Part shown: piece after piece, positions 21,647 through 58,345 of the stretch
Position numbering within the stretch: position 1 is the first letter of the stretch
Layout: every line of letters begins with the position of its first letter
Assembly (NCBI GenBank): GCA_038823825.1
Contig: JAWBCC010000003.1
Span: 69,351 to 133,350, forward strand
Length of the DNA stretch: 64,000 nucleotides
Reading direction: 5' to 3'
Source of the DNA: Candidatus Hadarchaeales archaeon
Lineage (GTDB): Archaea; Hadarchaeota; Hadarchaeia; Hadarchaeales; Hadarchaeaceae
Program-made: the position numbers and the translations under genes
Notes under the pieces: model-generated
What the model was told of the DNA's origin: nothing
The model's input: only the letters and a program-made list of their open reading frames with translations
Database searches by the model: none

Positions 21647-22301
21647 ACAAATGAAAAGATCAAATGATGAGATTCGCGAGTTAATTCTAAGAGAATTATA
21701 TGAAGTTCACAAAAAAGCTAGGAGTCTAAAAGCCACGGGAAAAAGCATAAGCGAGTTGAAACGCCAACTTAAGAAGCAATATGGACTAAGTGAAAAAGAA
21801 ATTGTGCCCAATCTTGATTTTTTAATCCAATGCGGTTGGGTAAAGGTAGAGAAAGAAACATCCGAGTTTAAAACTCCAAGAGGGTTTATAAAGAAACAGG
21901 AGAAAGGTATCTTCAAAATTTCAGATATGGGTATCAACTATTTTGAAGGACAATCCAAATTCCAAAGGATAGAGAGATCGCTTGCTGGTATAAACATAAC
22001 TAATATAGGTGGGGTCACAGTCTTAGGGGACGGAAATGTAGTTGTAAATGTAAACTATGTTGATTTATACAAAGAACTGTCTATGCTTTCAGAGATCATA
22101 AGAAAAAGTGATCAACTCAAAGATGTTGACAAATTAAACTACATCGCGGAAATTGAAACAATAAAATCCCAGTTGATGAAACCGGAACCTGACAAGAACA
22201 TAATAAAGCAAGCTTGGGAAAAACTAAAGCCACTTGCAACTATTGCTGGCATAGCTTCGTTTTTCGAGCGAGTTGTTAAATTAATGGGGGCATTGTTTTG
22301 A
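21636..22301 (+). CDS. Uncharacterized 221-aa protein embedded between hsdM and hsdS (N-terminal wHTH-like region, C-terminal coiled-coil/Gly-rich region)
   Basis: Overlaps hsdM by 11 nt and hsdS by 4 nt, so it is translationally coupled inside the R-M operon. Very AT-rich coding sequence. No recognizable catalytic motif. Confidence 0.5.
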   Translation: MEVKQMKRSNDEIRELILRELYEVHKKARSLKATGKSISELKRQLKKQYGLSEKEIVPNLDFLIQCGWVKVEKETSEFKTPRGFIKKQEKGIFKISDMGINYFEGQSKFQRIERSLAGINITNIGGVTVLGDGNVVVNVNYVDLYKELSMLSEIIRKSDQLKDVDKLNYIAEIETIKSQLMKPEPDKNIIKQAWEKLKPLATIAGIASFFERVVKLMGALF

Positions 22302-24534: not shown

Positions 24535-24536
24535 AA

Positions 24537-27500: not shown

Positions 27501-27545
27501 GAGCTCTGTGAGGAGATCATCAACGGACTCAAGGCCACTTCATAA
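24537..27545 (+). CDS. hsdR: Type I R-M restriction subunit HsdR (SF2 helicase/endonuclease)
   Basis: Walker A WQGSGKT, DEAH-box VLIDEGHRTQ, helicase C-terminal motifs (QAIARTNR), ~1000 aa. Start taken at the ATG at 24537 (MPIFTEK...). Confidence 0.9.
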   Translation: MPIFTEKSTVESYIIEKLKEKGWKHVPGEELEREDYSEPLLVRHLLEAIHRINPHLTLTKKDLDRILLELRSLPSTFDGSKRLLKFLKEGIPIELEKTGELRYVSLLDYENPKEKNEFIVSDQVPFHGPKERCRLDIVLYVNGIPLVAIECKNPTDPTRDWETAYKQIKSYEKAVPELFKYVQFSIAAAATTRYFPNVLGAEDVKIYFPKGKDTPESLDRTLDLLLNPDALLDLVANFIFAREEHGKFTKVLPYYYQYEGANQIYQRVLNNLSEKEKKEKGLIWHWQGSGKTLTMIYAARKLYLCPLLENPTIFFVVDREELEEQLFKEFSFLDLGIPSPEVISSIEHLRQILTYDEGRGKRGMFITLIHKFGEKLADLVFEDKDMKNISNRRNVIVLIDEGHRTQYGEYAGRMRGILKKAFFFAFTGTPFSTKKRDTFAAFAYPEEGELYLHKYFVRESIEDGFTLPIVFQTRMEKEVGLEKELLEEFLEQELEEITEESLRLALEGKISRRLTQIVVFFENPERIEKIASDIATHFKENVDGKFKGMVVAASRKACIYYKEALDRLLGPEYSEIVMTFNPRTDPEPIKSYYEKLRQKYHGKEIEEIWDEIIEKFKEREYPKILIVTDKLLTGFDAPILQVMYLDKPLKEHRLLQAIARTNRPFKELKPAGLIIDYVGILKEFEKAVAIYEKQDIQYVGFKPEEKIDELRKLISDAEETLEGVDKTKTDFETLKAAAKLLFHYPEKQRKFSQTYKQARNLYEFLLPFGLDKKTVERFKWLAAVYNFHRQWVEQEKSEEMEENFRKFYPRVVERVHKAIQIEMKEEFPSLTLDKEYLERLGRLGLEDQVYNMVFGLNKYIRVDRPFSPIYEPIAKRVEKLVERWRNKKISVEEAYNEAVSILQETRKTEERIKTLGFSEPEYFILKVLEKELGESEDLVQEVRSLWRKWEKTGKIFPGWTRKMSILKELVRDIRMFMVKKGIPLKRREELCEEIINGLKATS

Positions 27546-28338: not shown

Positions 28339-29040
28339 ATGAGAAAACGTCTCTCACAGTCCGAGGAAGAATATCTAGAGGCGATTTACAGAGAAACTCG
28401 CACAGGCAAGGATGCAAAAATCTCCAAGCTGGCTTCATCGCTCAAGGTAAAATCCCCAAGCGTAGTCCAGATGATAAACAGACTTTCCAGACGCGGCCTG
28501 ACCAGCAAAACGAAAGAAGGAGTCCGACTTACAAAAAAGGGAGAAGCCTCCGCGGCGAAGATAGTTAGGAGACATAGACTGGCAGAACGACTTTTGAGCG
28601 ACATTCTCGGCTGCGATCTTCCAAGCGTCCACGAGAAAGCCTGCGAGCTCGAGCACGTGATCGACGACGAACTCGCAGAAAAACTGGAGAAGGTCCTTGG
28701 AGCCCCCTCATGCCCTCACGGCGCCCCCATCCCCGACAGAGAAGGGAAGACGCCCGACATAGGCACCATCCCCCTCAGCGAGGTGGGTGAGGGGAAAAAA
28801 GCCATCATCTTCAGGATTCCAGAAGACAGATTGGCCGTTCAAAGGCTTCTATCCCTTTGCATTTTGCCCGGAGCCGAGGTAGAGGTGCAGAGGAAATCCC
28901 CAGGAGGTTCCGTGATCATAAAAGTTGGTAAAACAAACGTCGCCCTGAGCGGAGATCTCTCGAGAAATATAGAAGTCGCAAGTCCAGCCGTCTGGAGGAG
29001 GTTCAGACACAGATGGCGCTGGGGGATAAGAAAACCCTGA
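28339..29040 (+). CDS. Iron-dependent transcriptional repressor, DtxR/MntR family, with a C-terminal SH3-like/FeoA domain
   Basis: N-terminal SQSEEEYLEAIYRE (DtxR wHTH). Metal-site and dimerization region. C-terminal IPLSEVGEGKKAIIFRI...GAEVEV is FeoA/SH3-like. Confidence 0.8.
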   Translation: MRKRLSQSEEEYLEAIYRETRTGKDAKISKLASSLKVKSPSVVQMINRLSRRGLTSKTKEGVRLTKKGEASAAKIVRRHRLAERLLSDILGCDLPSVHEKACELEHVIDDELAEKLEKVLGAPSCPHGAPIPDREGKTPDIGTIPLSEVGEGKKAIIFRIPEDRLAVQRLLSLCILPGAEVEVQRKSPGGSVIIKVGKTNVALSGDLSRNIEVASPAVWRRFRHRWRWGIRKP

Positions 29041-30977
29041 AGATAGCCCTGGTTGGAACACCAAACGTAGGTAAGAGCGTTTTCTTCCACCAAATCGCCG
29101 GCGCGGACGTGATCGTCTCAAACTACCCTGGGACAACGGTGGAAATTCACGAAGCAAAGGTGAAAAGAAACGACTTTGAAATATCGCTCTTTGACCTGCC
29201 AGGAATATACTCACTTGGTGCACTCTCAGAGGACGAGATCGTTGCCAGAAAGGCCATACTTGAACAGCGCCCCGACGTCGTAATCGATATCCTCGACGCT
29301 TCCAATCTAGAAAGAAGTCTCTATCTCACGCTCCAACTGCTTGAGCTAAACATCCCCCTCGTAATCGCTTTGAACATGGTCGACCTAGCCGAATCGCAGG
29401 GTCTTCATCCCAACCCAGATAAACTTTCCAAAATTCTCGGCAGCCCAGTGATTCCAACGGTTGCGACTCGCGGAAAAAACATTTCTAAAGTCTTCGATGT
29501 CGCCATCACAATCGCTCAAAAAAGCACCAAACCAGAATGGAAGCCCAAGCTTTCAGGAGACCTCGAGGGCGCAGTCGGCAAACTTTCCCGCGTGATAAAA
29601 CGTAAATTCCGAGAAATCCCATACAATCTTCCGCCAGAAACCATTGCTCTCCGAATTCTTGAAGGAGATGCCCACATCATAGAGACGATCGCCGAAATCG
29701 AAGGAAGCGAGGATGTCCTAGAAGAAGCGGAAAGACTCGTGAAAAAAATAGAAAACATCCGCAAGGAGCCGCTTGCCATCACCATCGCCCGCGAAAGACA
29801 CAGCCTCGCCGCCATGATCGCAAAAAACATCACCGAAATAAAAAAGCCGAGGAAATCCAAGCTAGAAAGATTAGATTCAATTCTGACATCTCCAAAGACC
29901 GGGTTACCAATAGCTGCAATGGTTTTCGTTCTCGTGCTTCTAACTCTCATATACTTCGGCGGTTTGATCGAGGACATTCTCACAAATGGATGGGAAAATC
30001 ACATTTCCCCATCTCTCACTTCAGCCTTCTCTCATATGGGCAAGCTAGGCGAGGCTCTGAACATAGGACTCAACTGGGGAATCCAAGGAATCCTCGCAGT
30101 CATCATACCATACATTCTTCCATTCTTCATCATTATGGGAATTCTCGAGGACGTCGGCTATCTTCCAAGAATCGCCTTTCTTCTCGATTCCCTTATGCAC
30201 AAGATAGGACTTCACGGAAGAGCTGTGATTCCCCTCTTCGGCGGTTTCGGCTGCAACGTTCCGGCCATCATGGCGACGAGAACCCTCCTTTCCAAGCGTG
30301 AAAGAGTTATCGCAAGTATTCTTATCACAATGATCCCCTGCTCAGCCAGAACAGCGGTCATCCTCGGTTTGGTCGGAAACTATCTTGGCGTTCTCTACGC
30401 TCTAACAATATACGCCATAATCCTTTTCCTCATCTTTCTGGTGGGATTTCTCCTCAATCGCTGGATTCCCGGAAAAACCCCAGGAATGATCATGGAGGTT
30501 CCGCCACTCCGTGCCCCAGCTTGGAAACCCATCCTTGCAAACACGTGGATAAGAATGAAACACTTCCTATTTCTCGCCATGCCTCTTCTCCTCGTTTCAA
30601 GCTTCATCATCGGGCTCATGCAAGTCGGAGGAATTCTCGATGCCATAGTGCCGGTTTTCTCTCCTCTCACCACAGGTCTTCTCGGACTCCCAGCCATTAC
30701 AATCATTCCCCTCCTCTACGGTTTCCTAAGAAAGGAAGGCGGTCTTGTTCTCTTGGTGACCGTTGCCGGGACAAGCAACCTTCTGGAATTCATGACACCG
30801 TTACAGCTCTACGTCTACGTCCTCGTTCTGAGCATATACATTCCATGCGTGGCAACAGTCGCCGTCATAAGGAGAGAACTGGGCTGGAAGATTGCACTCT
30901 CAACAGCTTTTGGCACATTCATGCTCGCCGTAGCCGTGGGAGGTCTCGTCTTCCACTTTAATCCTCTTCGTCTATGA
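29013..30977 (+). CDS. feoB: Ferrous iron transport protein B
   Basis: N-terminal G-domain IALVGTPNVGKSVFFHQIAG (G1) and DLPGIYSL (G3), followed by a polytopic membrane domain with Gate motifs. 654 aa. Confidence 0.9.
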   Translation: MALGDKKTLKIALVGTPNVGKSVFFHQIAGADVIVSNYPGTTVEIHEAKVKRNDFEISLFDLPGIYSLGALSEDEIVARKAILEQRPDVVIDILDASNLERSLYLTLQLLELNIPLVIALNMVDLAESQGLHPNPDKLSKILGSPVIPTVATRGKNISKVFDVAITIAQKSTKPEWKPKLSGDLEGAVGKLSRVIKRKFREIPYNLPPETIALRILEGDAHIIETIAEIEGSEDVLEEAERLVKKIENIRKEPLAITIARERHSLAAMIAKNITEIKKPRKSKLERLDSILTSPKTGLPIAAMVFVLVLLTLIYFGGLIEDILTNGWENHISPSLTSAFSHMGKLGEALNIGLNWGIQGILAVIIPYILPFFIIMGILEDVGYLPRIAFLLDSLMHKIGLHGRAVIPLFGGFGCNVPAIMATRTLLSKRERVIASILITMIPCSARTAVILGLVGNYLGVLYALTIYAIILFLIFLVGFLLNRWIPGKTPGMIMEVPPLRAPAWKPILANTWIRMKHFLFLAMPLLLVSSFIIGLMQVGGILDAIVPVFSPLTTGLLGLPAITIIPLLYGFLRKEGGLVLLVTVAGTSNLLEFMTPLQLYVYVLVLSIYIPCVATVAVIRRELGWKIALSTAFGTFMLAVAVGGLVFHFNPLRL

Positions 30978-32615: not shown

Positions 32616-32804
32616 ATGAGGCTGAAAGGACCGAAGTGCATGATCTGTGGGGAGAAGATACAGATAATGAGTATGGACTCGGCCTACGTGAAGTTTGTTA
32701 GACCTGGCGAAGCCAAAGGAATCTTCATCTGCTGGAAGTGTGCTGAAAAGGAGTTCGGCGAAGTCCTGCAGGATATCCTGACAAAGGTCGCTGGTAAGGG
32801 GTGA
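32616..32804 (+). CDS. Small zinc-ribbon protein (62 aa, CxxC...CxxC), translationally coupled to the downstream AEP gene
   Basis: CMICGEK...CWKCAEKE. Stop overlaps the start of the next gene by 4 nt. Confidence 0.45.
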   Translation: MRLKGPKCMICGEKIQIMSMDSAYVKFVRPGEAKGIFICWKCAEKEFGEVLQDILTKVAGKG

Positions 32805-33886
32805 TCTCCTTGACGGTCACTCCCCAAGATCACATCCTGATGACCCTAGCCATCAAAAGGATAGGAAAATTCGTAGATCTCGAACACATAAGGGAAAAGC
32901 TCTGCAGGGACGGAGGAAGGGATTTCTCTCTGGAAGAGACGAAGATGCTTTTAGATTCATTGATCGGAAAGGGTCTCGTGCAGGAGAAAGGAGGGGAGTA
33001 CGCTCTCACGGAAAAGGGCCGCGACTTTTTCGAGAAAAGATGGAGAGAAGTTAAAGATCATCTGAATCAAGACTATCTAAAGGTCTACCGGGCAAAGCGA
33101 TATTACCCCCATGTTTCTAAAACCATCCTAGAGTTCTGCAAGGACAGATACGTTTCAGTTTTCAGGCTCTTTACAGACCGTGCCTGGCTTCAAAGGAAAC
33201 TCGGTCCCCGCTGGATAACGATAAAGAGCGAGGACGACATACAATACTGGCTGGACATTCACGGCATCGATTTCATCCCCTACATTCACAGAATTGGAAG
33301 CGATAGGCCCGACTGGCTCGTCATAGATTTTGACGCCGGAAAGAAAGTAGAGTTCGAGCAGACGAAGAAGGTTGTCATGACAGCCGCCGAAGTTTTACAT
33401 AATTACGGAATCGAGGTTGCGTTGAAGTTCAGCGGTTCCCGTGGCTTCCAGCTTTGGGCGGTTTTCGAGCCTCACGATCTGCCGACAGATTACCAACCAA
33501 AAAAGCTGAAAACGGAACGCAGGGAACGAAACTTTTTCACCTTTTACTCGGATATCATAAGATTTGTCGAAAGCAGAGTAGCGAAAAAACTCCCGAATCT
33601 CACAACCTCGGAAACGGCGAAAAAAGAAGAGAGGGAAGACAAAGTCCTCCTCGACGCCTCCATAATAAAGCCGATGGGAGACGTCAGGGCTCCCTATTCC
33701 ATGCATCACCGAACTGGTCTCATTTCCATGCCAGTGGGTTTAGATGAGCTAGAGGAATTCGAACCCAAGCAGGCAGATCCAGATCTTGTCGTTCAGCGCT
33801 ATAGGAAAAGGGGAAACGAATTTAAGCTCAAGCCTTGTGATGGTTCAAAGTTGTTCGAAGATTTGGTCAAATGGTGCAAAGAGTAA
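32801..33886 (+). CDS. Archaeo-eukaryotic primase (AEP) superfamily primase-polymerase of the LigD PolDom / NHEJ-polymerase type, with an N-terminal winged-helix domain
   Basis: Motif I LVIDFDAG (hhhDhD). Motif II FSGSRGFQLWAVF (SGxxGxH-like, with Gln where His is usual). Motif III LLDASIIKPMGDVRAPYSMHHRTGLISMPV matches the PolDom pattern D.S....G...APYS...R.G..S.P. The N-terminal ~100 aa is wHTH-like. Confidence 0.65.
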   Translation: MISLTVTPQDHILMTLAIKRIGKFVDLEHIREKLCRDGGRDFSLEETKMLLDSLIGKGLVQEKGGEYALTEKGRDFFEKRWREVKDHLNQDYLKVYRAKRYYPHVSKTILEFCKDRYVSVFRLFTDRAWLQRKLGPRWITIKSEDDIQYWLDIHGIDFIPYIHRIGSDRPDWLVIDFDAGKKVEFEQTKKVVMTAAEVLHNYGIEVALKFSGSRGFQLWAVFEPHDLPTDYQPKKLKTERRERNFFTFYSDIIRFVESRVAKKLPNLTTSETAKKEEREDKVLLDASIIKPMGDVRAPYSMHHRTGLISMPVGLDELEEFEPKQADPDLVVQRYRKRGNEFKLKPCDGSKLFEDLVKWCKE

Positions 33887-34295: not shown

Positions 34296-36368
34296 ATGAA
34301 GAAGGTGTTCGTGATATGCGAAAAGCCGTCAGCTGTTCCTAAGATAGCTGAAGCGATAGCCGGGAGAAAGGTTACCCAGAAAGAGCTGATGGGTATCCCA
34401 TATTGCGAGTTTGAAAGAGACGGAAAGCTCTTCGTCGTCGCACCGGCGATGGGACATTTGTTTACTCTAAAAAGTATAAAGTCTCTCAAAGATTATCCGG
34501 TTTTTGACCTCAAATGGGTGCCCATCCATGAGGTCGAGAAAAACGCAAAAAATGCGGCTAGATTCATAAAAGCCCTGAGAGAGCTCTCAAAGAACGCAGA
34601 GGAGTTTATAAGTGCCTGTGATTTTGACGTCGAAGGAAGCGTTATTGCCTTCAACGTTCTCCGCTTCATCTGCGGGAGTGATGTCATATCCAAAGCGAGG
34701 AGGATGAAGTTCTCCACGCTCACCCGCGAAGAGTTAAAGAAATCTTTCGAGAATATGCTGCCCACATTAGACTTTGAAGTTATAAATGCCGGTCTCGCAA
34801 GACATTATCTCGACTGGTATTGGGGGATGAACGTCTCAAGATTTCTAAGCTCTGCAGCCGAGAAGGCTGGAAATAGATTTGTAAAGTTATCGGCCGGTCG
34901 TGTTCAAACCCCCACTCTTAAAATCCTTCTCGATCGCGAGAGAGAAATAAAGAACTTTGTTTCGGTTCCCTTCTGGGTTTTGAAAGCCGTGATCGAAATC
35001 GGCGGGGAAGAGTTCATCGCTGAACATGAAACAGAAAAATTTTGGGAGAAAGAAAAAGCTGAGGAAGTCTACTCGGCATGCCTTGGGCAACCGGCGAGGG
35101 TAGTCGAAGTCAAACGCAGAAAAATAAACAGAAATCCTCCACCTCCGTTTGATCTAGGAACGCTCCAGTCGGAGGCATACAGATGTTTTGGTTTCACACC
35201 TATGAGGACGCAGATGATCGCCCAAGATCTCTATCAAGCCGCGCTTATCAGTTATCCAAGAACGAGCAGCCAAAAGCTCCCCAGCTCGATAGGCTACCGC
35301 GATATTCTACAGAGAATTGCGAAAATCTCACCAGACTACGCTGAAATCGCTCTAGATCTTCTGAGACAGCAAAAATTAGTCCCGGTCGAAGGTAAGAAAA
35401 CGGACCCGGCGCATCCGGCCATATTTCCGACGGGCGAGCCACCTGAAGAGCTCCCAAGCACCCATCAAAAGCTGTATGACATGATCGTCCGCAGATTCCT
35501 CGCTGTTTTCAGCAAGCCCGCTATGCTCGAAAGCACGCATGCAGATTTGGACATAGGCGGTCAAAGGTTCTTCCTCCGCGGTCAAAGAATACTCGATCCA
35601 GGATGGCTTGAATCCTACGGAAAGTATGTTTCCTACGAGGAACAAATGATTCCGGAGATAGAGAAAGGCGAAGAGCTGAAAGTCAAGAACATTCTGTTGG
35701 AGGAAAGAAGGACACAACCGCCGCCCAGATTTAACCCAGCATCGCTCGTGAAAGAGATGGAGGCGCGCGGTCTCGGGACGGAGGCGACCAGAGGCCCCAT
35801 TGTGCAAACCCTTTACCAGCGCGGGTATATTCAGGGTAGACAGATAACGGTTACACGGCTGGGGGAAACCGTGGTTGAAAGTCTTAGGATATGTCCGGCA
35901 ATTCTGAGCGAGGAACTCACCGCCAGATTCGAGCGGGAGATGATGGAAATTCAGGAAGGAAAGGCAAATTGGGAAGACGTTGTCAAAAAAGCTGAGCGAG
36001 AACTCTCCACTTTGCTGGAAGAAATGAAAGCGAGGGAGAAAGAGGTCGGAGAGAGATTGATTGAGGCTTACAAGCTTGCCTTGAGAAAATCCTTTGGAAA
36101 ATGCCCAAAGTGTGGAAAAAATCTGAGAATGGTGATTGCACAAAAGAGCGGGAAGAGGTTTGTCGGCTGTGAGGGTTATCCATCCTGCGACTTTTCTCTG
36201 CCACTACCTCAGCAGGGAAGCATAGAAATTCTAGATACTCCTTGCAAGATCTGTGGTTGGCCGGTCATTCTCGTGAGAAGAAGTGGCAAGCGACCTTACA
36301 GAACATGTTTGAACCCATCTTGTTCGTCGAAAAATCGCTTGAAGGATGTGTATAACCAGCAGGAATAA
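34296..36368 (+). CDS. topA: DNA topoisomerase I (type IA) with C-terminal zinc ribbons
   Basis: Toprim start VFVICEKPSAVPKIAEAI. Active-site Tyr region (ISYPRTSSQ). C-terminal Cys4 zinc ribbons (CPKCGKNL..., CKICGWP...). At 690 aa it is too short for reverse gyrase. Confidence 0.85.
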   Translation: MKKVFVICEKPSAVPKIAEAIAGRKVTQKELMGIPYCEFERDGKLFVVAPAMGHLFTLKSIKSLKDYPVFDLKWVPIHEVEKNAKNAARFIKALRELSKNAEEFISACDFDVEGSVIAFNVLRFICGSDVISKARRMKFSTLTREELKKSFENMLPTLDFEVINAGLARHYLDWYWGMNVSRFLSSAAEKAGNRFVKLSAGRVQTPTLKILLDREREIKNFVSVPFWVLKAVIEIGGEEFIAEHETEKFWEKEKAEEVYSACLGQPARVVEVKRRKINRNPPPPFDLGTLQSEAYRCFGFTPMRTQMIAQDLYQAALISYPRTSSQKLPSSIGYRDILQRIAKISPDYAEIALDLLRQQKLVPVEGKKTDPAHPAIFPTGEPPEELPSTHQKLYDMIVRRFLAVFSKPAMLESTHADLDIGGQRFFLRGQRILDPGWLESYGKYVSYEEQMIPEIEKGEELKVKNILLEERRTQPPPRFNPASLVKEMEARGLGTEATRGPIVQTLYQRGYIQGRQITVTRLGETVVESLRICPAILSEELTARFEREMMEIQEGKANWEDVVKKAERELSTLLEEMKAREKEVGERLIEAYKLALRKSFGKCPKCGKNLRMVIAQKSGKRFVGCEGYPSCDFSLPLPQQGSIEILDTPCKICGWPVILVRRSGKRPYRTCLNPSCSSKNRLKDVYNQQE

Positions 36369-36407
36369 ATCATCTTTATAAAATAACTCATCCCAAGTAA
36401 AAGGGAG

Positions 36408-37919
36408 GTGATAGAAATAAAGAGGACCATCGCGGAGATAAACGAGAAAATCAAGCGAGGGGATGCCGTAATTCTCACGGCGGAAGAGATGGTAGAATTG
36501 GTCAGGGAAAAAGGTGCCGAGGCAGCCGCAAAGGAAGTTGACGTTGTGACCACAGGAACATTCGGCCTCATGTGTAGTTCTGGAGCATTTCTAAACTTCG
36601 GTCACTCGGATCCTCCGATAAAATTCGGAGGAGGAGAAGTCTACCTGAATGACGTTCCGGCCTACGCTGGCCTAGCTGCAGTCGATGTGTACATAGGTGC
36701 AACGGCTCTCTCCAGGAGCAAGGGCATTGAGTACGGCGGCGGCCACGTCATCGAGGATTTAGTCAGCGGGAGAGAGATAGAGTTGGAGGCCAAAGCATAT
36801 GGGACCGACTGTTATCCGCGACGAGAAATAAAGCTTACGTTCACGATTCACGATCTGAACCAGGCGATCCTCTGTAACCCAAGAAATGCTTACCAGCGAT
36901 ACGTCGCAGCGACAAATTCAACAGACGAAACGCTTTACACATATATGGGCACGCTTCTTCCGAAATTCGGAAACGTGACATTTGCGGGAACGGGTGAGCT
37001 TGGTCCGCTCGCGAAAGATCCGAACTACGAAACTATTGGAATCGGAACTAGGATTTTCTTAGCCGGTGCCCAGGGATATATAGTAGGCGAAGGAACGCAG
37101 CACGATCCAAAAAAGCAACGTGGAACGATAATGGTTGCTGGAGATCTAAAGCAGATGGATGCAAAATATCTACGTGGTGCGACAGTACATAAGTACGGGA
37201 CGTCGCTTTTTGTGGGAATCGGAATACCCATTCCGATTATCAGTGAGCGAGTTGCCGCATCTGCCGGAATCAGCGATGAGCAAATAATGATAGATCTTCT
37301 AGACTATGGGGTTCCGAGACGGGAAAGGCCGATTATCAGGAAAGTCAGCTATGCTGAGTTAAAGTCCGGTAAAGTGGAGATTTACGGAAAGGATGTTCCC
37401 GTTAGCCCGCTTAGCAGCATAAAAATCTCGAGGGAGATTGCAGAGAAGCTTAAGGAGCTCATAGAAAAGGGAGAATTCTTGCTTTCCGAGCCCGTCGCAA
37501 GACTTTCGACGGAGAGGGAATTCAAACCAATGCGTCAGCCGGAAAGGGTTATTGTGGCCAAAGATTTGATGACGAGGGAGGTTATAACCTGCAAGCCGGA
37601 AACCCCGATAGCGGAGGCTGCAAGAATTCTAGCTAGGGGAGGCTTCGATCACTTACCAGTGGTAGACGACTCAGGGACCCTAGTTGGTATTGTCACTTCT
37701 TGGGATCTAGCCATCTCTATAGGTTCTGGCAAAAACAAGGTTGCCGAGATAATGACGAGAAAGGTGATAACGGCCGTAGAGAATGAACCTATCGAATCGG
37801 TCGCCAGAAAACTAGATGAGCATGGCATCTCGGGGGTCCCAGTTATTGACGCCTTCCGCAGGGTTGTTGGAATAATCACTACCGACGACATCTCCAAGCT
37901 GATCGGGAAGAGGAGGTGA
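36408..37919 (+). CDS. COG1900/DUF39 protein with tandem C-terminal CBS domains (homocysteine biosynthesis protein, MA1821-like)
   Basis: GTG start with a GGGAGG RBS. N-terminus IEIKRTIAEINEKIKRGDAVILTAEEMVELV is typical of DUF39. Two CBS domains at the C-terminus (HLPVVDDSGTLVGIVTSWDL; GVPVIDAFRRVVGIITTDDI). Confidence 0.8.
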   Translation: MIEIKRTIAEINEKIKRGDAVILTAEEMVELVREKGAEAAAKEVDVVTTGTFGLMCSSGAFLNFGHSDPPIKFGGGEVYLNDVPAYAGLAAVDVYIGATALSRSKGIEYGGGHVIEDLVSGREIELEAKAYGTDCYPRREIKLTFTIHDLNQAILCNPRNAYQRYVAATNSTDETLYTYMGTLLPKFGNVTFAGTGELGPLAKDPNYETIGIGTRIFLAGAQGYIVGEGTQHDPKKQRGTIMVAGDLKQMDAKYLRGATVHKYGTSLFVGIGIPIPIISERVAASAGISDEQIMIDLLDYGVPRRERPIIRKVSYAELKSGKVEIYGKDVPVSPLSSIKISREIAEKLKELIEKGEFLLSEPVARLSTEREFKPMRQPERVIVAKDLMTREVITCKPETPIAEAARILARGGFDHLPVVDDSGTLVGIVTSWDLAISIGSGKNKVAEIMTRKVITAVENEPIESVARKLDEHGISGVPVIDAFRRVVGIITTDDISKLIGKRR

Positions 37920-37923
37920 TTTC

Positions 37924-38325
37924 ATGAAAAAGAAAATTCTTCTGAAATATTCAGCAACGAAAGCAACGGAACCGGTGCTGGCTTCAGCTATAAAAGAGAC
38001 TGGACTCCTTGTCAACATCCTCTACGCGGACATCGACAGTTCCGGTGGAGAAATAATGATTTCTGTGGACGCACCTCAGCATGAGCTAGAAAGACTCCTT
38101 CAGAAACTCAGAGATTTGGGTGTTGAGGTGGAAGAGATCAGAAGAGTCATAAAGCTCGATGAGTCGCGCTGCGTTCATTGTGGCGCTTGCGTTTCGATAT
38201 GTCCGACGCAAGCTTTACGTCTCACAAATGATTTCTCCTTGAAGCTTGATGAAGAAAAGTGCGTTTATTGTGAGGCATGCATTCCGACATGCCCCATGAG
38301 AGCTCTCAAGATCGGGAGGTGGTAA
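37924..38325 (+). CDS. NIL-domain / 2x[4Fe-4S] ferredoxin protein (MA1822-like partner of DUF39)
   Basis: N-terminal NIL-like domain. C-terminal CVHCGACVSICP and CVYCEACIPTCP motifs. Confidence 0.8.
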   Translation: MKKKILLKYSATKATEPVLASAIKETGLLVNILYADIDSSGGEIMISVDAPQHELERLLQKLRDLGVEVEEIRRVIKLDESRCVHCGACVSICPTQALRLTNDFSLKLDEEKCVYCEACIPTCPMRALKIGRW

Positions 38326-39056
38326 CCTTTCTAACGGCGAGATGGAGACGAGGAGAAACAACTCTGCTCATTAAGGCTAAATCCAAAGAAGCGATTCTTG
38401 CAGCCATTGAGGCGGCTAAGCAAGCTAGATTCGAAATAGAAGGATACGTTCTGCGTTATCCCGAGTTCAGATATTCTCTCCATCCGCTGAAAATTAGGGA
38501 CCCTGAGAAGCCAAAGGTGGTTTCTCTTATGTTGAGAGCAGCTGAAATCGCAGGTGTCGGACCTTTTGCAGCGGTAGCAGGAGCTATCGCTCAGGTTGCT
38601 TCCGTAGCAGCTTCCGAGGTGGGTGGGGCTATTGTTGAGAACGGTGGAGACATCTCGGCGTCCGGAAAATTCGATTTTTCGGTCGGAATCTTCGCCGGGG
38701 ATTCTCCACTTTCGGGTACCATCGGCTTCAGGATAACAAGTGGAGATCTCCCAATCGGCATATGCACGAGTTCCGGAACCGTTGGTCATTCTATAAGTTT
38801 TGGTGTGGCAGACGCAGTTGTAGTAGTAGCAGACGAAGCCTCGGTTGCAGATGCGGCAGCAACTGCAATAGCAAATGAGGTGACAGGAGAAGACATCGAA
38901 CAATCTATAAAAAATGGCTTGGAAAAAGCCGACGAGATAGACGAAGTAAGAGGGTGTCTAATAATTCGCGGAAAAATGGCTGGAATGAAAGGAAAGCTTC
39001 CCAAGCTTATTCCGACCGAAAGAAAAAGTGTTTTAAAAGAAATAGATTGGGTCTAA
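38313..39056 (+). CDS. Ala/Gly-rich ApbE-like protein, possibly COG2122/UPF0280 (a candidate third component of the sulfide-to-homocysteine module)
   Basis: TTLLIKAKSKEAILAAIEAAK... then GVGPFAAVAGAIAQ...GGAIVENGGDISASG...ISFGVADAVVVVADEA. The start is uncertain: an in-frame GTG at 38313, or an ATG at 38277 inside the upstream gene. Confidence 0.4.
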   Translation, partial: REVVTFLTARWRRGETTLLIKAKSKEAILAAIEAAKQARFEIEGYVLRYPEFRYSLHPLKIRDPEKPKVVSLMLRAAEIAGVGPFAAVAGAIAQVASVAASEVGGAIVENGGDISASGKFDFSVGIFAGDSPLSGTIGFRITSGDLPIGICTSSGTVGHSISFGVADAVVVVADEASVADAAATAIANEVTGEDIEQSIKNGLEKADEIDEVRGCLIIRGKMAGMKGKLPKLIPTERKSVLKEIDWV

Positions 39057-39059
39057 TCG

Positions 39060-39542
39060 GTGAATCAATTGGAAAACCGAAAATATCTTTTGATTTTTGT
39101 AGCCCTCGTCTTGGCAGGCTTATTGTGCTATTTCATTTTCAGGATTGGGCGCTCTAAAACTTCCGAAAATTTCCCAAGCTTTGTGGAAAGAATAGTAATA
39201 GTCAAAAGGGTGATCGACGGGGACACAATTGAATTAAACAACGGTGAGAGGGTAAGGCTTGTCGGAATAAACGCTCCAGAGCTTTACCACGATCCTCCTG
39301 AGCCCGGGGCGTTAGAGGCTAAAGAATTCTTAGAAAACCTGTGTCCTCCTGGGTCAACAGTAGGTCTGAACGTTGACGACATGAAACCACATGATTTCTA
39401 CGGCAGAACTCTGGCGGTCGTCTATGTGCTAGTGGATGGAAAATGGATAAACGCGAATGCGGAGCTGCTTAAGCACGGTTTTGCTGAAATTTTATTCATT
39501 CCACCATCGGAGTTCAACCCATGGGAGTGGCTAGAGGATTAA
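39060..39542 (+). CDS. Membrane-anchored thermonuclease (staphylococcal nuclease homologue)
   Basis: N-terminal TM helix. VIDGDTIELNNGERVRLVGINAPE is the classic SNase active-site region. Confidence 0.8.
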   Translation: MNQLENRKYLLIFVALVLAGLLCYFIFRIGRSKTSENFPSFVERIVIVKRVIDGDTIELNNGERVRLVGINAPELYHDPPEPGALEAKEFLENLCPPGSTVGLNVDDMKPHDFYGRTLAVVYVLVDGKWINANAELLKHGFAEILFIPPSEFNPWEWLED

Positions 39543-40420
39543 AAAATTGTGCCTGCCATGAAAGAGAGCAGACCGAAAAACATCCCGAGTTTACAATAGT
39601 TTGAGGCCATCGCTGCAGATTTCTTTGTTTGGGCTTTCACAATTTCACCTATGGCCGTGATGAAAGCGAACAACGACATCGGTAAAAAGAGAACGTAACC
39701 TGTTCTCAATATGCCGCAAACAAGCGGTAAGGGAGACAAGCAGATGGCAACAAGAACAAATATACTGGCAACGGCCGCACCAGTTCTTTTACCATATCTT
39801 ATTGGAAATGTTTCTAATCCCAGTCTTTTATCTCCCTCGAAATCCTGGATGGATTTTATGATTTCCCTTCCAACAGTCGAGAAGAAAGATAGAAGAACAA
39901 GCAAAAGCAAGGACGCCGGTAGAAACTCTTGTCTGAAAGGATAGAGTGCAATCCCGCCGAAAAGAAATGTGGATCCAACGAGATATCCGATCGTAATGTT
40001 GCCTGGCAATCCGGTTCGCTTGAGTCGGGCCGAGTATGCTACAAGCATGAGAGCGTTGAATCCGGCTAAAAGCAAGCATGGCATGTTTCTCATGAGCGTG
40101 GCGGTCGCAAATCCAGTGAGAAATAGAATCTTGGAGATTTTAACAGCTTCAGCCGGCTTTATTTTTCCAGAAGGTATTGGTCTATCCGGCCTGTTGATCT
40201 TGTCGATCTTCCTGTCGAAGAAATCGTTGATGGCGTTTCCGCCTCCCGAAATCATAAACGCGGTCAAAAAGGCGAGCAGGTAGAAATACCAGTCTGCTTT
40301 ACCTCCGGCTACAAAAGCTCCGATGATGACAGCTATGCCCGCCAGCAGACAGTTCAGCGGTCGTATGAGCTTCAAGCCAGCAGATAGTTTCTCGATTTTT
40401 GACGGAATATGTTCACCCAC
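39539..40420 (-). CDS. UbiA-family prenyltransferase (possibly digeranylgeranylglyceryl phosphate synthase)
   Basis: NAINDFFDRKIDKINRPDRPIPSG (NDxxDxxxD). Second Asp-rich motif. ~8 TM helices. 293 aa. Confidence 0.75.
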   Translation of the reverse strand: MGEHIPSKIEKLSAGLKLIRPLNCLLAGIAVIIGAFVAGGKADWYFYLLAFLTAFMISGGGNAINDFFDRKIDKINRPDRPIPSGKIKPAEAVKISKILFLTGFATATLMRNMPCLLLAGFNALMLVAYSARLKRTGLPGNITIGYLVGSTFLFGGIALYPFRQEFLPASLLLLVLLSFFSTVGREIIKSIQDFEGDKRLGLETFPIRYGKRTGAAVASIFVLVAICLSPLPLVCGILRTGYVLFLPMSLFAFITAIGEIVKAQTKKSAAMASNYCKLGMFFGLLSFMAGTIF

Positions 40421-45324: not shown

Positions 45325-45594
45325 ATGGAAGTAGTGGTGAGACTTCATCCAAGCCTCAAATCCGAAATAGGAACATGCGAGGTCAGAGTGCAGATATCAG
45401 ATTATGAGACAATTGATACGCTTATGATGAAAATAAGTCGCAGATATCCGAAGCTCCTAGAAATGGTTATCGATCCAACTACGGGTGACATAAGAACAGA
45501 CTTCGAGATTTTATTAAACGGCCGGAGGATAAAAGATATCCATACAAAGCTAAAGCACAAGGACGAGATTTCTGTAAATCCGGTTCAAACTTAA
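45325..45594 (+). CDS. Small beta-grasp (MoaD/ThiS-like) protein lacking the C-terminal Gly-Gly
   Basis: EVRVQI..., DFEILLNGRRI and KDEISVNP resemble the ThiS/MoaD core, but the protein ends in PVQT. Confidence 0.3.
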   Translation: MEVVVRLHPSLKSEIGTCEVRVQISDYETIDTLMMKISRRYPKLLEMVIDPTTGDIRTDFEILLNGRRIKDIHTKLKHKDEISVNPVQT

Positions 45595-46790
45595 AGTTTC
45601 TTTTTCATGGTGAGTTCAATCATTTTTTCAATTTCCATTTTAAGCGGTTCTGGGAGATCTGTGAGAATATTCGGATTCATAAAACCCTTCACTATGAGAG
45701 ATCTTGCCTCGTCTTCTGAGAAGCCACGAGACATGAGGTAAAAAATTTGTTCCTCCGCGATCTTTCCCACCGCCGCCTCATGTGAGAGTTCCGTCCCCTC
45801 GACCTCGGCTATAAGTTCCGGAAACGCTCTGATCACAGCACCTTCTGAAAGTATCAATCCCATGCACTCCAGGTGCCCCCGACTCTCCTTATCTTTCCCG
45901 ATTAGCAGTCCCCTGGCAGTCATATCAGCCCGGTCGGCCGCAACAGATCTCGAAATTATTTCACCCCTACTTTTCTTTCCTTCCAAGAGTATCTTTGTCC
46001 CAGCGTCTATCTTAGATTCTCCAGAGCCGTAGATTATGGAATTGAAAACAGCTCTTGACCCATCCCCGCGACAGTAGGCGGTTGGAAACATCTGTAGACT
46101 TCTGACAGGCTTCAACGAAACATAGTTGCTCACAAACGTAGCACCATCTTCGAGCAATACTCCGGTTCTCGGTCTGACAATCAGTTCTTCTCCCCACGCG
46201 TGGATCATCGTGAATGTCAGTTTTGCGTTTTCTTTGACGAAAAATTCGGAAATTCCAACGTGTAGCCCACTGCGAACATTTGGATGCACGGTACAACCGG
46301 TTATTATATGTGCTTCCGACCCTGGCTCGGCGAGTATCACATTGTGTACATTTTGGTCCAAATTGTTTGTGGAGATGAAAAGACATGCTTGTAGTGGCAG
46401 CGTTATTTTTTGATTTTCAAAAATCCTGATGAAATAACCGTTGTCCCATTCATTTGCTGCCAATCGGGTGTATTCATCCGCTTCTTTGTCGATGATCGAC
46501 CAGACAAATTTTTCAAGCCATTTATATTTTTTCATGGCATCCCTCACGCTCATGATTTCAGCCTTTCCTTCGAAAGCTTTCTGGATCCTTGAGAACACAA
46601 CAGAATGATCTATCTGAAAATACGCCCCGGATCTATCATTCATATCTGGCCTAACTCCGACCTCTTGCGCTCTTTCAGCTATATCCCTTGGGAGCTCAGA
46701 AAGCTGGCAGGGACCCCAAGCCTTAGCTGTTCTCTTAAATTTCCACCCCTCGCCAATCAACACCTCTTCTCCAGACATTTTTCGCACCAT
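45591..46790 (-). CDS. sufB: Fe-S cluster assembly protein SufB/SufD family
   Basis: 399 aa with the SufBD beta-helix core. Directly downstream of sufC, with overlap. Confidence 0.75.
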   Translation of the reverse strand: MVRKMSGEEVLIGEGWKFKRTAKAWGPCQLSELPRDIAERAQEVGVRPDMNDRSGAYFQIDHSVVFSRIQKAFEGKAEIMSVRDAMKKYKWLEKFVWSIIDKEADEYTRLAANEWDNGYFIRIFENQKITLPLQACLFISTNNLDQNVHNVILAEPGSEAHIITGCTVHPNVRSGLHVGISEFFVKENAKLTFTMIHAWGEELIVRPRTGVLLEDGATFVSNYVSLKPVRSLQMFPTAYCRGDGSRAVFNSIIYGSGESKIDAGTKILLEGKKSRGEIISRSVAADRADMTARGLLIGKDKESRGHLECMGLILSEGAVIRAFPELIAEVEGTELSHEAAVGKIAEEQIFYLMSRGFSEDEARSLIVKGFMNPNILTDLPEPLKMEIEKMIELTMKKKL

Positions 46791-47551
46791 TTGTATCCGT
46801 TTCTCATTATTTGGTTAAAGATCTTCTCAGGATCGCCACTGCAAGCGACGGTACCATTTATAATAACGTGTGCCCTGTGAACTCTTACATGTTTCAAAAT
46901 GTGCCCCGTGTGTGTGACAAGTAAACCGCTTCTTTCTTCGAGGAATTCTCCTATGATCCTACCTATCGCGTGTAAGTTCTCTACGTCGACCCCCGAATCT
47001 GGTTCATCAAATATAGCAAACTTCGGATTTTGTGCCATTACCTGCAGGATCTCCGAACGCTTGATTTCACCGCCCGAAAATCCTACATTGAGATCGCGTT
47101 CTAGAATCTCCTGCGATAGGTTAAGACTTCGCGTCAATCCAAGTATTCTCTCCTCATTACTCAGTCTGGTTACAATGGTTTTCAGTTTGACACCTTTCAC
47201 GGCGGGTGGCGACTGATAGGCTACGCCAAGCCCAAGTTTAACGCGTTCATTAAGCGGCAGGTTCGTTATATCTCGACCGTCAAAGATTATTCTCCCGCTT
47301 ACAACTTTGTAAGCTGGGTGACCGAGAATACTCATAATCAGCGAAGACTTCCCTGAACCATTAGGTCCGAAGATCACATGTACTTCTCCGCTAGGAATTT
47401 CTAACTCTACATCGTGAAGTATTTTCCTTCCAGCGATTTCAACTGAAAGTTTTTCGATCTTCAACATGTCCATAAAAACTCTGTCAATTTCGTTTATATG
47501 AATGAAGTTTCTTTCTCGAAGCAGAGATATTAACATACGTTGTGTGAACAT
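46757..47551 (-). CDS. sufC: Fe-S cluster assembly ATPase SufC
   Basis: Walker A GPNGSGKSSL. ABC signature FSGGEIKRSEIL. Walker B FAIFDEPDSG. H-loop. Confidence 0.85.
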   Translation of the reverse strand: MFTQRMLISLLRERNFIHINEIDRVFMDMLKIEKLSVEIAGRKILHDVELEIPSGEVHVIFGPNGSGKSSLIMSILGHPAYKVVSGRIIFDGRDITNLPLNERVKLGLGVAYQSPPAVKGVKLKTIVTRLSNEERILGLTRSLNLSQEILERDLNVGFSGGEIKRSEILQVMAQNPKFAIFDEPDSGVDVENLHAIGRIIGEFLEERSGLLVTHTGHILKHVRVHRAHVIINGTVACSGDPEKIFNQIMRNGYKWCEKCLEKRC

Positions 47552-57754: not shown

Positions 57755-57758
57755 GCGT

Positions 57759-58277: not shown

Positions 58278-58345
58278 TTTCTCTCTTTAGAATAAAAATG
58301 GCAGAGGCGGAGGCGGTCAATAACTTGGGGAGAATCTCTTAAAGT

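What the first reader, a model, noticed from the sequence alone, without database searches (positions are those of the whole stretch)
36408..39056. Three-gene sulfide-to-homocysteine module: DUF39-CBS, NIL-ferredoxin, and a candidate ApbE-like third partner
COG1900 (DUF39 with tandem CBS domains) and the NIL/ferredoxin protein are the pair shown in Methanosarcina to be required for homocysteine formation from sulfide in organisms lacking the canonical pathway. Directly downstream, and overlapping, is an Ala/Gly-rich 250-aa protein that may be the COG2122/UPF0280 (ApbE-like) protein implicated in efficient sulfide assimilation. If so, this is the complete linked trio in a non-methanogen.
Basis: established knowledge. 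Interest (0 to 1): 0.5.

Follow-up and report, generated by a model that had tools for sequence, protein, structure and literature searches.

The report
Known sulfide-to-homocysteine three-gene operon
These three adjacent genes in an uncultured Hadarchaeales archaeon are an ordinary, intact copy of the already published pathway (DUF39-CBS enzyme, NIL-ferredoxin, ApbE-like UPF0280 helper) that makes the methionine precursor homocysteine directly from sulfide.

Summary
36408-37919 encodes a DUF39/HcyBio protein with a C-terminal CBS pair. 37924-38325 encodes a NIL + 2x[4Fe-4S] ferredoxin. The third ORF (most likely 38319-39056) is a UPF0280/COG2122 protein: NCBIfam PRK04334 E=2e-75, PDB 2o34 (DVU1097) E=6e-28, and an AlphaFold model that matches 2o34 first and then only ApbE/Ftp flavin transferases.

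The window comes from a Candidatus Hadarchaeales MAG. GenBank already calls the genes 'homocysteine biosynthesis protein', '4Fe-4S binding protein' and 'UPF0280 family protein'.

The interpretation, a complete linked trio in a non-methanogen, is right but not new. All three families were shown genetically to be needed for homocysteine synthesis in Desulfovibrio vulgaris (Price 2018). DUF39 was described as often adjacent to COG2122 and ferredoxin (Kuehl 2014). Price 2018 reads the Dehalococcoides run DET0921:DET0919 as encoding this pathway.

Of 71 informative species loci, 23 have the same A-B-C order, and 22 of those are from lineages not known as methanogens (Hadarchaeota, Bathyarchaeia, Dehalococcoidia and others).

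Absence of canonical metY/metB/metC genes could be checked only within the 64-kb window, which has none. Low interest.

The parts
36375..36383 (+). TATA-box-like element TTTATAAAA, about 25-30 nt upstream of the start codon of gene A. It is the putative archaeal promoter of the operon.
   Evidence: Read directly from the sequence. Its role as a promoter is inferred from its position only. The sigma-70 and intrinsic-terminator scan gave nothing above shuffled background.
36408..37919 (+). [quoted passage not shown] The DUF39 domain covers aa 20-359 (nt 36465-37484). Invariant Cys56 is at nt 36573-36575 and Cys135 at nt 36810-36812. The CBS pair covers about aa 384-499 (nt 37557-37904).
   Evidence: PF01837 E=3.2e-145 and CBS E=6e-33. 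Cys56 and Cys135 are the only invariant cysteines among 25 homologues. The CBS pair matches the MJ0100 CBS crystal structures at E=1.5e-36. The MMP16 model TIGR03287 scores only 171.5 bits against a 363.95-bit cut-off. NCBI names it 'homocysteine biosynthesis protein'.
37924..38325 (+). Gene B: the NIL-ferredoxin subunit (MA1822 type), 133 aa. The NIL domain covers aa 5-71 (nt 37936-38136). The 2x[4Fe-4S] domain covers aa 77-127 (nt 38152-38304). A GGAGGTGA Shine-Dalgarno sequence lies 5 nt upstream of the ATG, and the gap after the stop codon of A is 4 nt.
   Evidence: NIL E=1.8e-12, Fer4 E=1.1e-16. Eight Cys form two CX2CX2CX3C motifs. The junction sequence is shown.
38319..39056 (+). Gene C: UPF0280/COG2122 protein with an ApbE-like fold (family of MA1715, DvMF_0044 and DVU1097). 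The most likely start is GTG 38319 (245 aa), overlapping the stop of B by 7 nt. Alternative starts are ATG 38289 (the public gene call, 255 aa) and ATG 38277 (the longest ORF, 259 aa).
   Evidence: NCBIfam PRK04334 E=2.1e-75. P0001, 100% identical, is named 'UPF0280 family protein' and carries PF27030. PDB 2o34 matches at E=5.7e-28, and at 2.4e-54 with the family profile. The model has pLDDT 90.7. Foldseek finds 2o34 at TM 0.76-0.82 and then only ApbE/Ftp/FmnB. The start codon is inferred from relatives.

Best explanation

Gene A (DUF39-CBS) and gene B (NIL-ferredoxin) form L-aspartate semialdehyde sulfurtransferase. This enzyme reductively adds sulfide-derived sulfur to aspartate semialdehyde and gives homocysteine without a homoserine intermediate. 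In the published model, the essential DUF39 cysteine (Cys56 here) is in the catalytic core, the two [4Fe-4S] clusters of B supply electrons, and the CBS pair (SAM/MTA binding) and NIL domain (methionine binding) give end-product feedback.

Gene C (UPF0280/COG2122, ApbE fold) is translationally coupled to B. It is the accessory factor that makes sulfur incorporation efficient: it is required in D. vulgaris, and needed at low sulfide in M. acetivorans.

Shown here: the family memberships, the conserved residues, the operon structure and the conserved synteny. Inferred from published genetics in other organisms: the reaction, the regulation and the role of C.
For: Domain and family matches for all three genes.

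A has exactly the two invariant cysteines described for COG1900a L-ASST homologues (PMC12068725). It has the C-terminal CBS pair typical of archaeal L-ASST, close to the MJ0100 CBS pair. It lacks the inserted ferredoxin domain of MMP16.

B has NIL plus two complete cluster motifs.

C has a confident ApbE-like fold whose best match is DVU1097 of D. vulgaris.

Gene spacing is tight: A to B is 4 nt with a Shine-Dalgarno sequence, and B and C overlap.

A and B are the only neighbours of C conserved across 80 species loci. The A-B-C order occurs in 23 of 71 informative loci spanning archaea and bacteria.

Published genetics: DUF39, NIL/ferredoxin and COG2122 mutants of D. vulgaris are methionine auxotrophs, and the fitness profiles of COG2122 and DUF39 correlate at r=0.98 (PMC5764234). 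L-ASST is MA1821 plus MA1822, and MA1715 aids sulfide assimilation (PMC12068725).

The window also carries SAH hydrolase, an amidohydrolase and MetRS 16-20 kb downstream, so methionine-cycle genes are nearby.
Against: There is no biochemical or expression evidence for this organism.

The molecular function of C is unknown even in model organisms. Its one well-conserved cysteine (Cys159) is present in only 30 of 52 diverse family representatives, which does not fit a universal persulfide-relay role.

C scores 253.6 bits against the best NCBIfam equivalog model, just below the 262-bit cut-off.

L-ASST may have secondary substrates; a CoM-synthase side activity has been proposed (PMC12068725).

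Whether the genome also has a canonical homocysteine route is unknown.

Confidence: 0.85

Rival explanations
1. The module's main product is another thiol, not homocysteine. For example, coenzyme M could be made from sulfoacetaldehyde, because COG1900 enzymes perform chemically analogous aldehyde-to-thiol conversions and some Hadarchaeota carry alkyl-CoM reductases.
For: Gene A shares homology with MMP16/ComF (TIGR03287 E=1.9e-50). PMC12068725 proposes that L-ASST partly compensates for loss of MMP16 in M. acetivorans.
Against: A scores far below the MMP16 cut-off and lacks the inserted ferredoxin domain. It has the COG1900a cysteine pattern. Both regulatory domains point to methionine and SAM control: a CBS pair like that of MJ0100, and a NIL domain. 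No CoM-biosynthesis or mcr/acr genes are in the window.
Confidence: 0.04
2. Gene C is a true ApbE-type FAD:protein FMN transferase that flavinylates a partner protein, and its position next to A and B is incidental.
For: After 2o34, every significant Foldseek hit is an ApbE/Ftp/FmnB flavin transferase. The Ftp motifs GAIAKG...GGNI and D-A-L-A-T align with the most conserved UPF0280 motifs.
Against: The Pfam ApbE model gives no hit at E<=0.01. The UPF0280 profile reaches Ftp only at E=0.18. [quoted passage not shown] Linkage of C to A and B recurs across phyla, so it is not incidental. COG2122 mutants are methionine auxotrophs (PMC5764234).
Confidence: 0.05
3. The cluster is a decaying or redundant remnant, and homocysteine is made by a canonical sulfhydrylase encoded elsewhere in the genome.
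For: The rest of the genome was not available. D. vulgaris data hint at minor alternative routes (PMC5764234).
Against: All three ORFs are intact and keep every invariant family residue. The same three proteins recur at 99-100% identity on several independent assemblies. The model of C is confident. Translation signals and coupling are preserved.
Confidence: 0.05

Closest known systems
L-aspartate semialdehyde sulfurtransferase of Methanosarcina acetivorans (MA1821 DUF39-CBS + MA1822 NIL-ferredoxin) with the accessory protein MA1715 (COG2122)
   Same: The domain architectures of all three proteins are the same. A has two conserved DUF39 cysteines and a C-terminal CBS pair. B has NIL plus two [4Fe-4S] clusters. 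The third protein is from the UPF0280/ApbE-fold family (PMC12068725).
   Different: Judging from the locus tags, MA1715 is not adjacent to MA1821-22 in M. acetivorans. Here the three genes form one tight operon. The host is a Hadarchaeales archaeon, not a known methanogen.
Desulfovibrio vulgaris Miyazaki F homocysteine genes DvMF_1464 (DUF39), DvMF_0262 (NIL/ferredoxin) and DvMF_0044 (COG2122), and the crystal structure of DVU1097 (PDB 2o34)
   Same: The same three families are involved, and all are genetically required for methionine prototrophy in a non-methanogen (PMC5764234). C matches DVU1097 at E=5.7e-28, 32-34% identity, TM 0.76-0.82.
   Different: The Desulfovibrio genes are dispersed. 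This agrees with the Desulfobacterota loci here, where C stands alone. The bacterial DUF39 proteins fetched here lack the CBS pair.
Dehalococcoides gene run DET0921:DET0919, and the adjacency of DUF39 to ferredoxin and COG2122 genes noted by Kuehl et al. 2014
   Same: Price 2018 reads DET0921:DET0919 as encoding the DUF39 pathway in a non-methanogen (PMC5764234), and Kuehl 2014 reports the adjacencies (PMC4045070). The Dehalococcoidia loci L051, L063 and L082 show the same A-B-C order as the window.
   Different: The bacterial versions lack CBS domains on A. The archaeal versions (Hadarchaeota, Bathyarchaeia, Methanospirillum) have them.
MMP16/ComF coenzyme M synthase (COG1900d, TIGR03287)
   Same: It shares the DUF39/COG1900 catalytic domain and the analogous aldehyde-to-thiol chemistry (PMC12068725).
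   Different: MMP16 has a ferredoxin domain inserted into the DUF39 domain, no CBS pair, and conserved cysteines at different positions. Gene A scores 171.5 bits against the 363.95-bit cut-off.
ApbE/Ftp/FmnB FAD:protein FMN transferases (PF02424)
   Same: The fold is shared (Foldseek probability 1.0, TM 0.47-0.61). The GG and D-x-x-x-T motifs align with the most conserved UPF0280 motifs.
   Different: There is no significant sequence match. C is 70-90 residues shorter at the N-terminal, flavin-binding side. There is no evidence of flavin transfer.

Membership tests
L-ASST catalytic subunit (DUF39 / HcyBio PF01837, subgroup COG1900a) | Full-length DUF39/HcyBio domain | tested here: met
   PF01837 E=3.2e-145, profile positions 1-349 of 349 matched.
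L-ASST catalytic subunit (DUF39 / HcyBio PF01837, subgroup COG1900a) | Two nearly universally conserved cysteines (Cys54 and Cys131 in MA1821 numbering; PMC12068725) | tested here: met
   Cys56 (motif MCSSGA) and Cys135 (motif GTDCYPR) are the only invariant Cys columns in 25 homologues from archaea and bacteria.
L-ASST catalytic subunit (DUF39 / HcyBio PF01837, subgroup COG1900a) | C-terminal CBS pair (archaeal L-ASST; SAM/MTA-binding in MJ0100) and no ferredoxin insertion (which defines MMP16/COG1900d) | tested here: met
   Two CBS domains. The MJ0100 CBS structures 3kpc and 3kpb match at E about 1e-36. There is no Fer4 hit in A. TIGR03287 scores 171.5 bits, below the 363.95-bit cut-off.
L-ASST catalytic subunit (DUF39 / HcyBio PF01837, subgroup COG1900a) | Catalyses aspartate semialdehyde + sulfide + 2e- -> homocysteine | not testable with these tools
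   This needs an enzymatic assay or genetic complementation.
NIL-ferredoxin subunit (MA1822 / DvMF_0262 type) | N-terminal NIL domain fused to a 2x[4Fe-4S] ferredoxin, encoded immediately downstream of the DUF39 gene | tested here: met
   NIL E=1.8e-12, Fer4 E=1.1e-16. Eight Cys form two CX2CX2CX3C motifs. The gap to A is 4 nt. The same arrangement occurs in 23 other species loci.
UPF0280 / COG2122 (MA1715, DvMF_0044, DVU1097; Pfam PF27030) | Significant full-length sequence match to family models or members | tested here: met
   NCBIfam PRK04334.1-1 E=2.1e-75 covering 237 of 248 profile positions, although 253.6 bits is just under the 262-bit equivalog cut-off. There is a precomputed PF27030 assignment, and sources name it 'UPF0280 family protein' and 'ApbE superfamily ... 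(UPF0280 family)'. PDB 2o34 (DVU1097) matches at E=5.7e-28. That MA1715 belongs to UPF0280/COG2122 is taken from the literature and database naming, not re-tested.
UPF0280 / COG2122 (MA1715, DvMF_0044, DVU1097; Pfam PF27030) | Family-invariant residues present | tested here: met
   G91, P92, G98, G119, G120, G172 and D188 are invariant, and S161, S162, T192 and N196 are at least 90% conserved, in 52 diverse representatives. All are present in the window protein.
UPF0280 / COG2122 (MA1715, DvMF_0044, DVU1097; Pfam PF27030) | Genomic association with DUF39 and NIL-ferredoxin genes | tested here: met
   C follows B directly and overlaps it. A and B are the only widely conserved neighbours of C.
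ApbE flavin transferase (PF02424) | Sequence membership in PF02424 | tested here: not met
   No Pfam hit at E<=0.01. The UPF0280 profile against the Ftp/ApbE chains gives E=0.18.
ApbE flavin transferase (PF02424) | ApbE fold | tested here: met
   Foldseek finds ApbE, Ftp and FmnB structures at E from 4e-7 to 3e-3, TM 0.47-0.61, 11-14% identity.
ApbE flavin transferase (PF02424) | FAD binding and FMN transfer to a target threonine | not testable with these tools
   [quoted passage not shown] Here C is about 245 aa against 310-340 aa for ApbE proteins, and the alignment begins at Ftp residue about 145.
MMP16 / ComF coenzyme M synthase (TIGR03287) | Score above the curated cut-off, and a ferredoxin domain inserted in the DUF39 domain | tested here: not met
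   171.5 bits against 363.95. No Fer4 domain in A.

The most novel reading that the evidence does not exclude
UPF0280 (gene C) may not be a passive persulfide carrier. It may be an ApbE-like, Mg2+-dependent group-transfer or maturation enzyme acting on the DUF39/NIL-ferredoxin complex.

The family has no universally conserved cysteine: Cys159 is present in only 30 of 52 representatives. Its invariant residues fall on the motifs that align with GAIAKG...GGNI and D284-x-x-x-T288 of the ApbE-family enzyme Ftp. From memory, not checked here, those two Ftp residues are the Mg2+ ligands.

The stop/start coupling of B and C, conserved from Hadarchaeota to Dehalococcoidia, would then reflect assembly of an enzyme together with its maturase.
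Probability: 0.2. Interest if true: 0.45.

Novelty: already known. Interest (0 to 1): 0.12.

Why it matters
This finding mainly matters for annotation. It shows that this Hadarchaeales lineage can make homocysteine, and hence methionine, directly from sulfide and aspartate semialdehyde. It also shows that the generic GenBank labels '4Fe-4S binding protein' and 'UPF0280 family protein' can be upgraded to the second subunit and the accessory factor of the DUF39 pathway.

It adds no new biology. The pathway, its three components, its occurrence in non-methanogens and the clustering of its genes are all published. The open question in the field is what COG2122/UPF0280 does at the molecular level, and this locus is no better placed to answer that than the existing model organisms.

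Tried and rejected
(1) A possible B-C fusion protein in locus L013 (a 392-aa ORF). A Pfam scan found no NIL or Fer4 domain in that frame. The C frame is simply open across B, so this is not a fusion.

(2) Longer UPF0280 representatives (P0159, P0199, P0210, P0212, P0168) were scanned for informative extra domains. None was found in the local Pfam copy.

(3) The sigma-70 promoter and intrinsic-terminator scan of 36000-39800 gave counts indistinguishable from shuffles. This is expected for an archaeon and was not used.

(4) Rauch & Perona 2016 (PMC4936107) and Rauch 2014 (PMID 25315403) are not held in the library. Their content is therefore cited only through PMC5764234 and PMC12068725.

(5) The literature search for 'MA1715' was swamped by DOI strings. 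The search for 'DVU1097' found nothing.

(6) The SNase gene 3 nt downstream of C was considered as a possible fourth operon member. This was rejected because it is not a conserved neighbour in any of the 80 related loci.

(7) Paralogues of A, B or C, and SepCysS or ThiS-ThiF genes, were sought in the window by tblastn. None was found.

(8) Rfam found only four tRNAs in the window and no riboswitch upstream of A.
Full report
WHAT IS THERE

The interval 36408-39056 holds three plus-strand ORFs.

Gene A (36408-37919, 503 aa) matches Pfam HcyBio/DUF39 (PF01837) over the whole profile, E=3.2e-145. It carries two CBS domains at its C-terminus.

Gene B (37924-38325, 133 aa) has an N-terminal NIL domain and a 2x[4Fe-4S] ferredoxin domain. 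The ferredoxin domain has eight cysteines in two CX2CX2CX3C motifs.

Gene C (longest ORF 38277-39056) has no hit in the local Pfam copy. It does match the following:
- the four NCBIfam PRK04334 models, best E=2.1e-75 (253.6 bits, just under the 262-bit equivalog cut-off);
- a precomputed assignment to the newer Pfam family PF27030 'AbpE_bact';
- the crystal structure 2o34, protein DVU1097 of Desulfovibrio vulgaris Hildenborough, at E=5.7e-28, or 2.4e-54 with a family profile.

HOST AND EXISTING ANNOTATION

A protein 100% identical to C, and exact copies of A and B, are in GenBank. They come from 'Candidatus Hadarchaeales archaeon' MAGs and are named 'homocysteine biosynthesis protein', '4Fe-4S binding protein' and 'UPF0280 family protein'.

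The same gene order occurs on several independent assemblies of this organism (L001-L006). It runs: topoisomerase, A, B, C, SNase, then DGGGP synthase on the opposite strand, then NurA and HerA.

Nothing in the 64-kb window is a methanogenesis gene or a canonical homocysteine gene (metX/A, metY/Z, metB, metC). This covers most of the larger ORFs, not every ORF. The window carries these genes:
- a group-3b-like [NiFe] hydrogenase;
- Ku, a LigD-type ligase and a PrimPol;
- a type I restriction-modification system;
- FeoAB and SufBC;
- SAH hydrolase, an amidohydrolase and MetRS.

DETAILS OF EACH GENE

Gene A. I aligned A with 24 homologues extracted from the related loci, including Methanospirillum, Bathyarchaeia, Dehalococcoidia, Clostridiales and a Mesoaciditogaceae MAG. 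Exactly two cysteine columns are invariant: Cys56 in MCSSGA and Cys135 in GTDCYPR.
- This is the signature described for COG1900a L-ASST homologues, with Cys54 essential and Cys131 auxiliary in MA1821 (PMC12068725).
- A is not the MMP16/ComF paralogue. TIGR03287 scores 171.5 bits against a 363.95-bit cut-off, and A has no inserted ferredoxin domain.
- The CBS pair aligns end to end with the crystallised CBS pair of MJ0100, E=1.5e-36. PMC12068725 cites that pair as binding SAM and MTA.
- No solved structure exists for the DUF39 domain or for a NIL-ferredoxin protein in the PDB copy searched.

Gene C. An AlphaFold model built on 50 homologues is confident (pLDDT 90.7, pTM 0.89).
- Foldseek against the PDB returns 2o34 first (TM 0.76-0.82). 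Every further significant hit is an ApbE/Ftp/FmnB flavin transferase (TM 0.47-0.61, 11-14% identity).
- By sequence the family is distinct from ApbE. There is no PF02424 hit at E<=0.01, and the profile reaches Ftp only at E=0.18.
- C is 70-90 residues shorter than ApbE proteins, and the alignment starts around Ftp residue 145. [quoted passage not shown]
- So 'ApbE-like' is correct for the fold but not for family membership.

The UPF0280 family is large. It has 1,773 clusters at 50% identity with E<=1e-3.

OPERON ANATOMY

A TATA-like TTTATAAAA (36375-36383) lies about 25-30 nt upstream of the GTG start of A. Sister assemblies read GTG-ATG where the window reads GTG-ATA. A very short or absent 5' leader is plausible, but this is inference only.

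B follows A after 4 nt, with a GGAGGTGA Shine-Dalgarno sequence.

For C, the longest ORF (ATG 38277) and the public call (ATG 38289) both overlap B by tens of nucleotides. Most homologues begin only a few residues before the conserved W-x-x-x-ET motif. In the relatives L008, L009 and L015, the C frame is closed by a stop immediately upstream, and C begins at a GTG equivalent to window 38319. I therefore take 38319-39056 (245 aa, 7-nt GTGGTAA overlap) as the most likely gene.

Across the sampled A-B-C loci, from archaea and bacteria, a candidate start for C lies within about 20 nt of the stop of B wherever the C frame is closed just upstream. This suggests conserved translational coupling.

CO-OCCURRENCE

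One scan of the GTDB species collection, using a profile of diverse UPF0280 proteins, returned 80 loci. I searched them with A, B and C. Of the 71 loci with at least 2.3 kb of upstream DNA:

| Arrangement | Loci | Where found |
|---|---|---|
| Same A-B-C order | 23 | 5 Hadarchaeota, 11 Bathyarchaeia, 1 unclassified archaeon, Methanospirillum, 3 Dehalococcoidia, a Clostridiales MAG, a MAG labelled Cyanobacteriota |
| C alone | 41 | Methanobacteria, Desulfobacterota, Syntrophales, Asgard lineages |
| B-C without A | 3 | L012, L013, L076 |
| A + plain ferredoxin + C | 2 | L036, L049 |
| B-C, with A possibly lost beyond the contig end | 2 | L014, L066 |

An all-against-all clustering of neighbouring ORFs found A and B to be the only widely conserved neighbours of C. 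The CBS pair on A is present in the archaeal versions and absent in the bacterial ones.

The linked trio is therefore common, and most instances come from lineages not known as methanogens.

COMPARISON WITH THE LITERATURE

- Kuehl et al. 2014 (PMC4045070) showed DUF39 (Dde_3007) is needed for methionine synthesis in D. alaskensis. They noted that its orthologues are often adjacent to, or fused with, a ferredoxin and are often adjacent to COG2122.
- Price et al. [quoted passage not shown] They pointed to the Dehalococcoides gene run DET0921:DET0919 as encoding the pathway.
- PMC12068725 (2025) summarises the archaeal enzyme. L-ASST is MA1821 plus MA1822, with Cys54 and Cys131. CBS and NIL are the proposed SAM and methionine sensors. 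MA1715 is described as a sulfur-trafficking protein for efficient sulfide assimilation.
- Mukai et al. 2017 (PMC5424206) noted that these methanogen-type sulfur-assimilation genes occur in Deltaproteobacteria and Chloroflexi and co-occur with SepCysS.

'A complete linked trio in a non-methanogen' is established knowledge, not a discovery.

MECHANISM

Shown here: the three proteins are intact members of their families and keep all invariant residues. They are encoded as a tight operon whose composition is conserved across phyla.

Inferred from published genetics and biochemistry in other organisms:
- A and B reductively transfer sulfide-derived sulfur to aspartate semialdehyde to give homocysteine.
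- The ferredoxin clusters deliver the electrons.
- The CBS and NIL domains confer feedback by SAM and methionine.
- C enhances, or is required for, sulfur incorporation.

One observation bears on the unresolved role of C. Its only well-conserved cysteine (Cys159) is present in just 30 of 52 diverse representatives. The invariant positions (G91, P92, G98, G119, G120, D188, with T192 near-invariant) fall on the motifs that align with Ftp GAIAKG...GGNI and D284-x-x-x-T288. I recall those two Ftp residues as the Mg2+ ligands; this was not checked here. The pattern leaves room for a catalytic, ApbE-like role rather than a simple cysteine persulfide relay. The alignment to Ftp is not significant on its own, and this remains a low-probability hypothesis.

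WHAT COULD NOT BE TESTED

- Presence or absence of canonical homocysteine genes elsewhere in the genome.
- Expression of the operon.
- Enzymatic activity.
- Direct alignment to the M. acetivorans proteins, whose sequences were not retrievable. The original Rauch papers are also not held.

VERDICT

This is a correct and useful annotation of an ordinary, already described pathway. Novelty: already known. Interest: low.

Noticed in passing
L007:3000-5236, and likewise L008, L009, L015 (related Hadarchaeota): In sister Hadarchaeota the A-B-C trio is followed directly by a ThiS-ThiF fusion gene (PF02597+PF00899) and a SepCysS-like PLP enzyme (best Pfam PF05889). Together they form a five-gene sulfur-assimilation cluster. 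The window lineage lacks these two genes here and anywhere else in the 64 kb. A secreted SNase-like nuclease gene (39060-39542) sits in their place.
   Followed up: partly
window 55233-60193: An S-adenosylhomocysteine hydrolase gene (55233-56468, minus strand) overlaps by 4 nt an amidohydrolase gene (56465-57754, minus strand) that may be an MTA/SAH deaminase. Both lie next to methionyl-tRNA synthetase (58346-60193, plus strand). The pairing suggests the archaeal deaminase-dependent (S-inosylhomocysteine) route for recycling SAH to homocysteine, 16 kb from the de novo homocysteine operon.
   Followed up: no
window 9264-11044 (minus strand) and 32801-33886 (plus strand): There is a Ku homologue (10226-11044), an adjacent LigD-type ATP-dependent DNA ligase (9264-10229), and a separate LigD primase-polymerase domain protein with a winged helix-turn-helix (32801-33886). 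This is a bacterial-style NHEJ gene set, which from my own knowledge is uncommon in archaea.
   Followed up: no
window 11493-15482: A four-gene cluster resembles a group-3b (sulfhydrogenase-like) [NiFe] hydrogenase: a Fer4_22 subunit, an FAD/NAD-binding subunit, a small subunit and a large subunit. It coincides with a stretch of unusually high GC skew, +0.25 to +0.27 over 12-18 kb.
   Followed up: no
window 36408-36413; L002-L004: The second codon of gene A is ATA in the window and in L001, but ATG in three other assemblies of the same organism, where gene callers start the protein one codon later (502 aa). The GTG start lies inside a GGGAGGTGA string and about 25-30 nt after a TATA-like box. 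This suggests a leaderless or near-leaderless mRNA. Other Hadarchaeota have a Shine-Dalgarno sequence followed by a TTG start.
   Followed up: partly
L016:2966-5038 and L017 (Baldrarchaeota and 'Desulfurococcales' MAGs): Here the UPF0280 gene is paired divergently with a 433-aa DUF39 protein. That protein has a weak, sub-threshold Fer4 hit inside the DUF39 region and no CBS pair, and no NIL-ferredoxin gene is nearby. This is a different DUF39 architecture associated with the same accessory protein.
   Followed up: partly
L012, L013, L076: These loci have NIL-ferredoxin followed by UPF0280, but no DUF39 gene within 6 kb upstream. L012 is the Hadesarchaea MAG WYZ-LMO6. The B-C pair can therefore travel without A.
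   Followed up: no
window 19865-27545: A type I restriction-modification system (HsdM, HsdS, HsdR) is interrupted by two ORFs with no Pfam match: 21636-22301 (221 aa) and 23329-24534 (401 aa). A YgjP-like metallopeptidase gene follows.
   Followed up: no
window 1110-7028 and 61100-64000: There are two very large putative secreted or surface proteins. One is a 1,972-aa NosD/beta-helix protein with Big_1 and fn3 domains. The other is an ORF of at least 947 aa that runs off the end of the window and has an N-terminal hydrophobic segment.
   Followed up: no
window 28339-30977 and 45591-47551: Iron and Fe-S genes flank the operon. A DtxR/FeoA-like regulator and FeoB lie upstream. SufB/D and SufC lie on the opposite strand, 6.5 kb downstream. 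This may be relevant to supplying the [4Fe-4S] clusters of gene B, but the linkage is loose.
   Followed up: no
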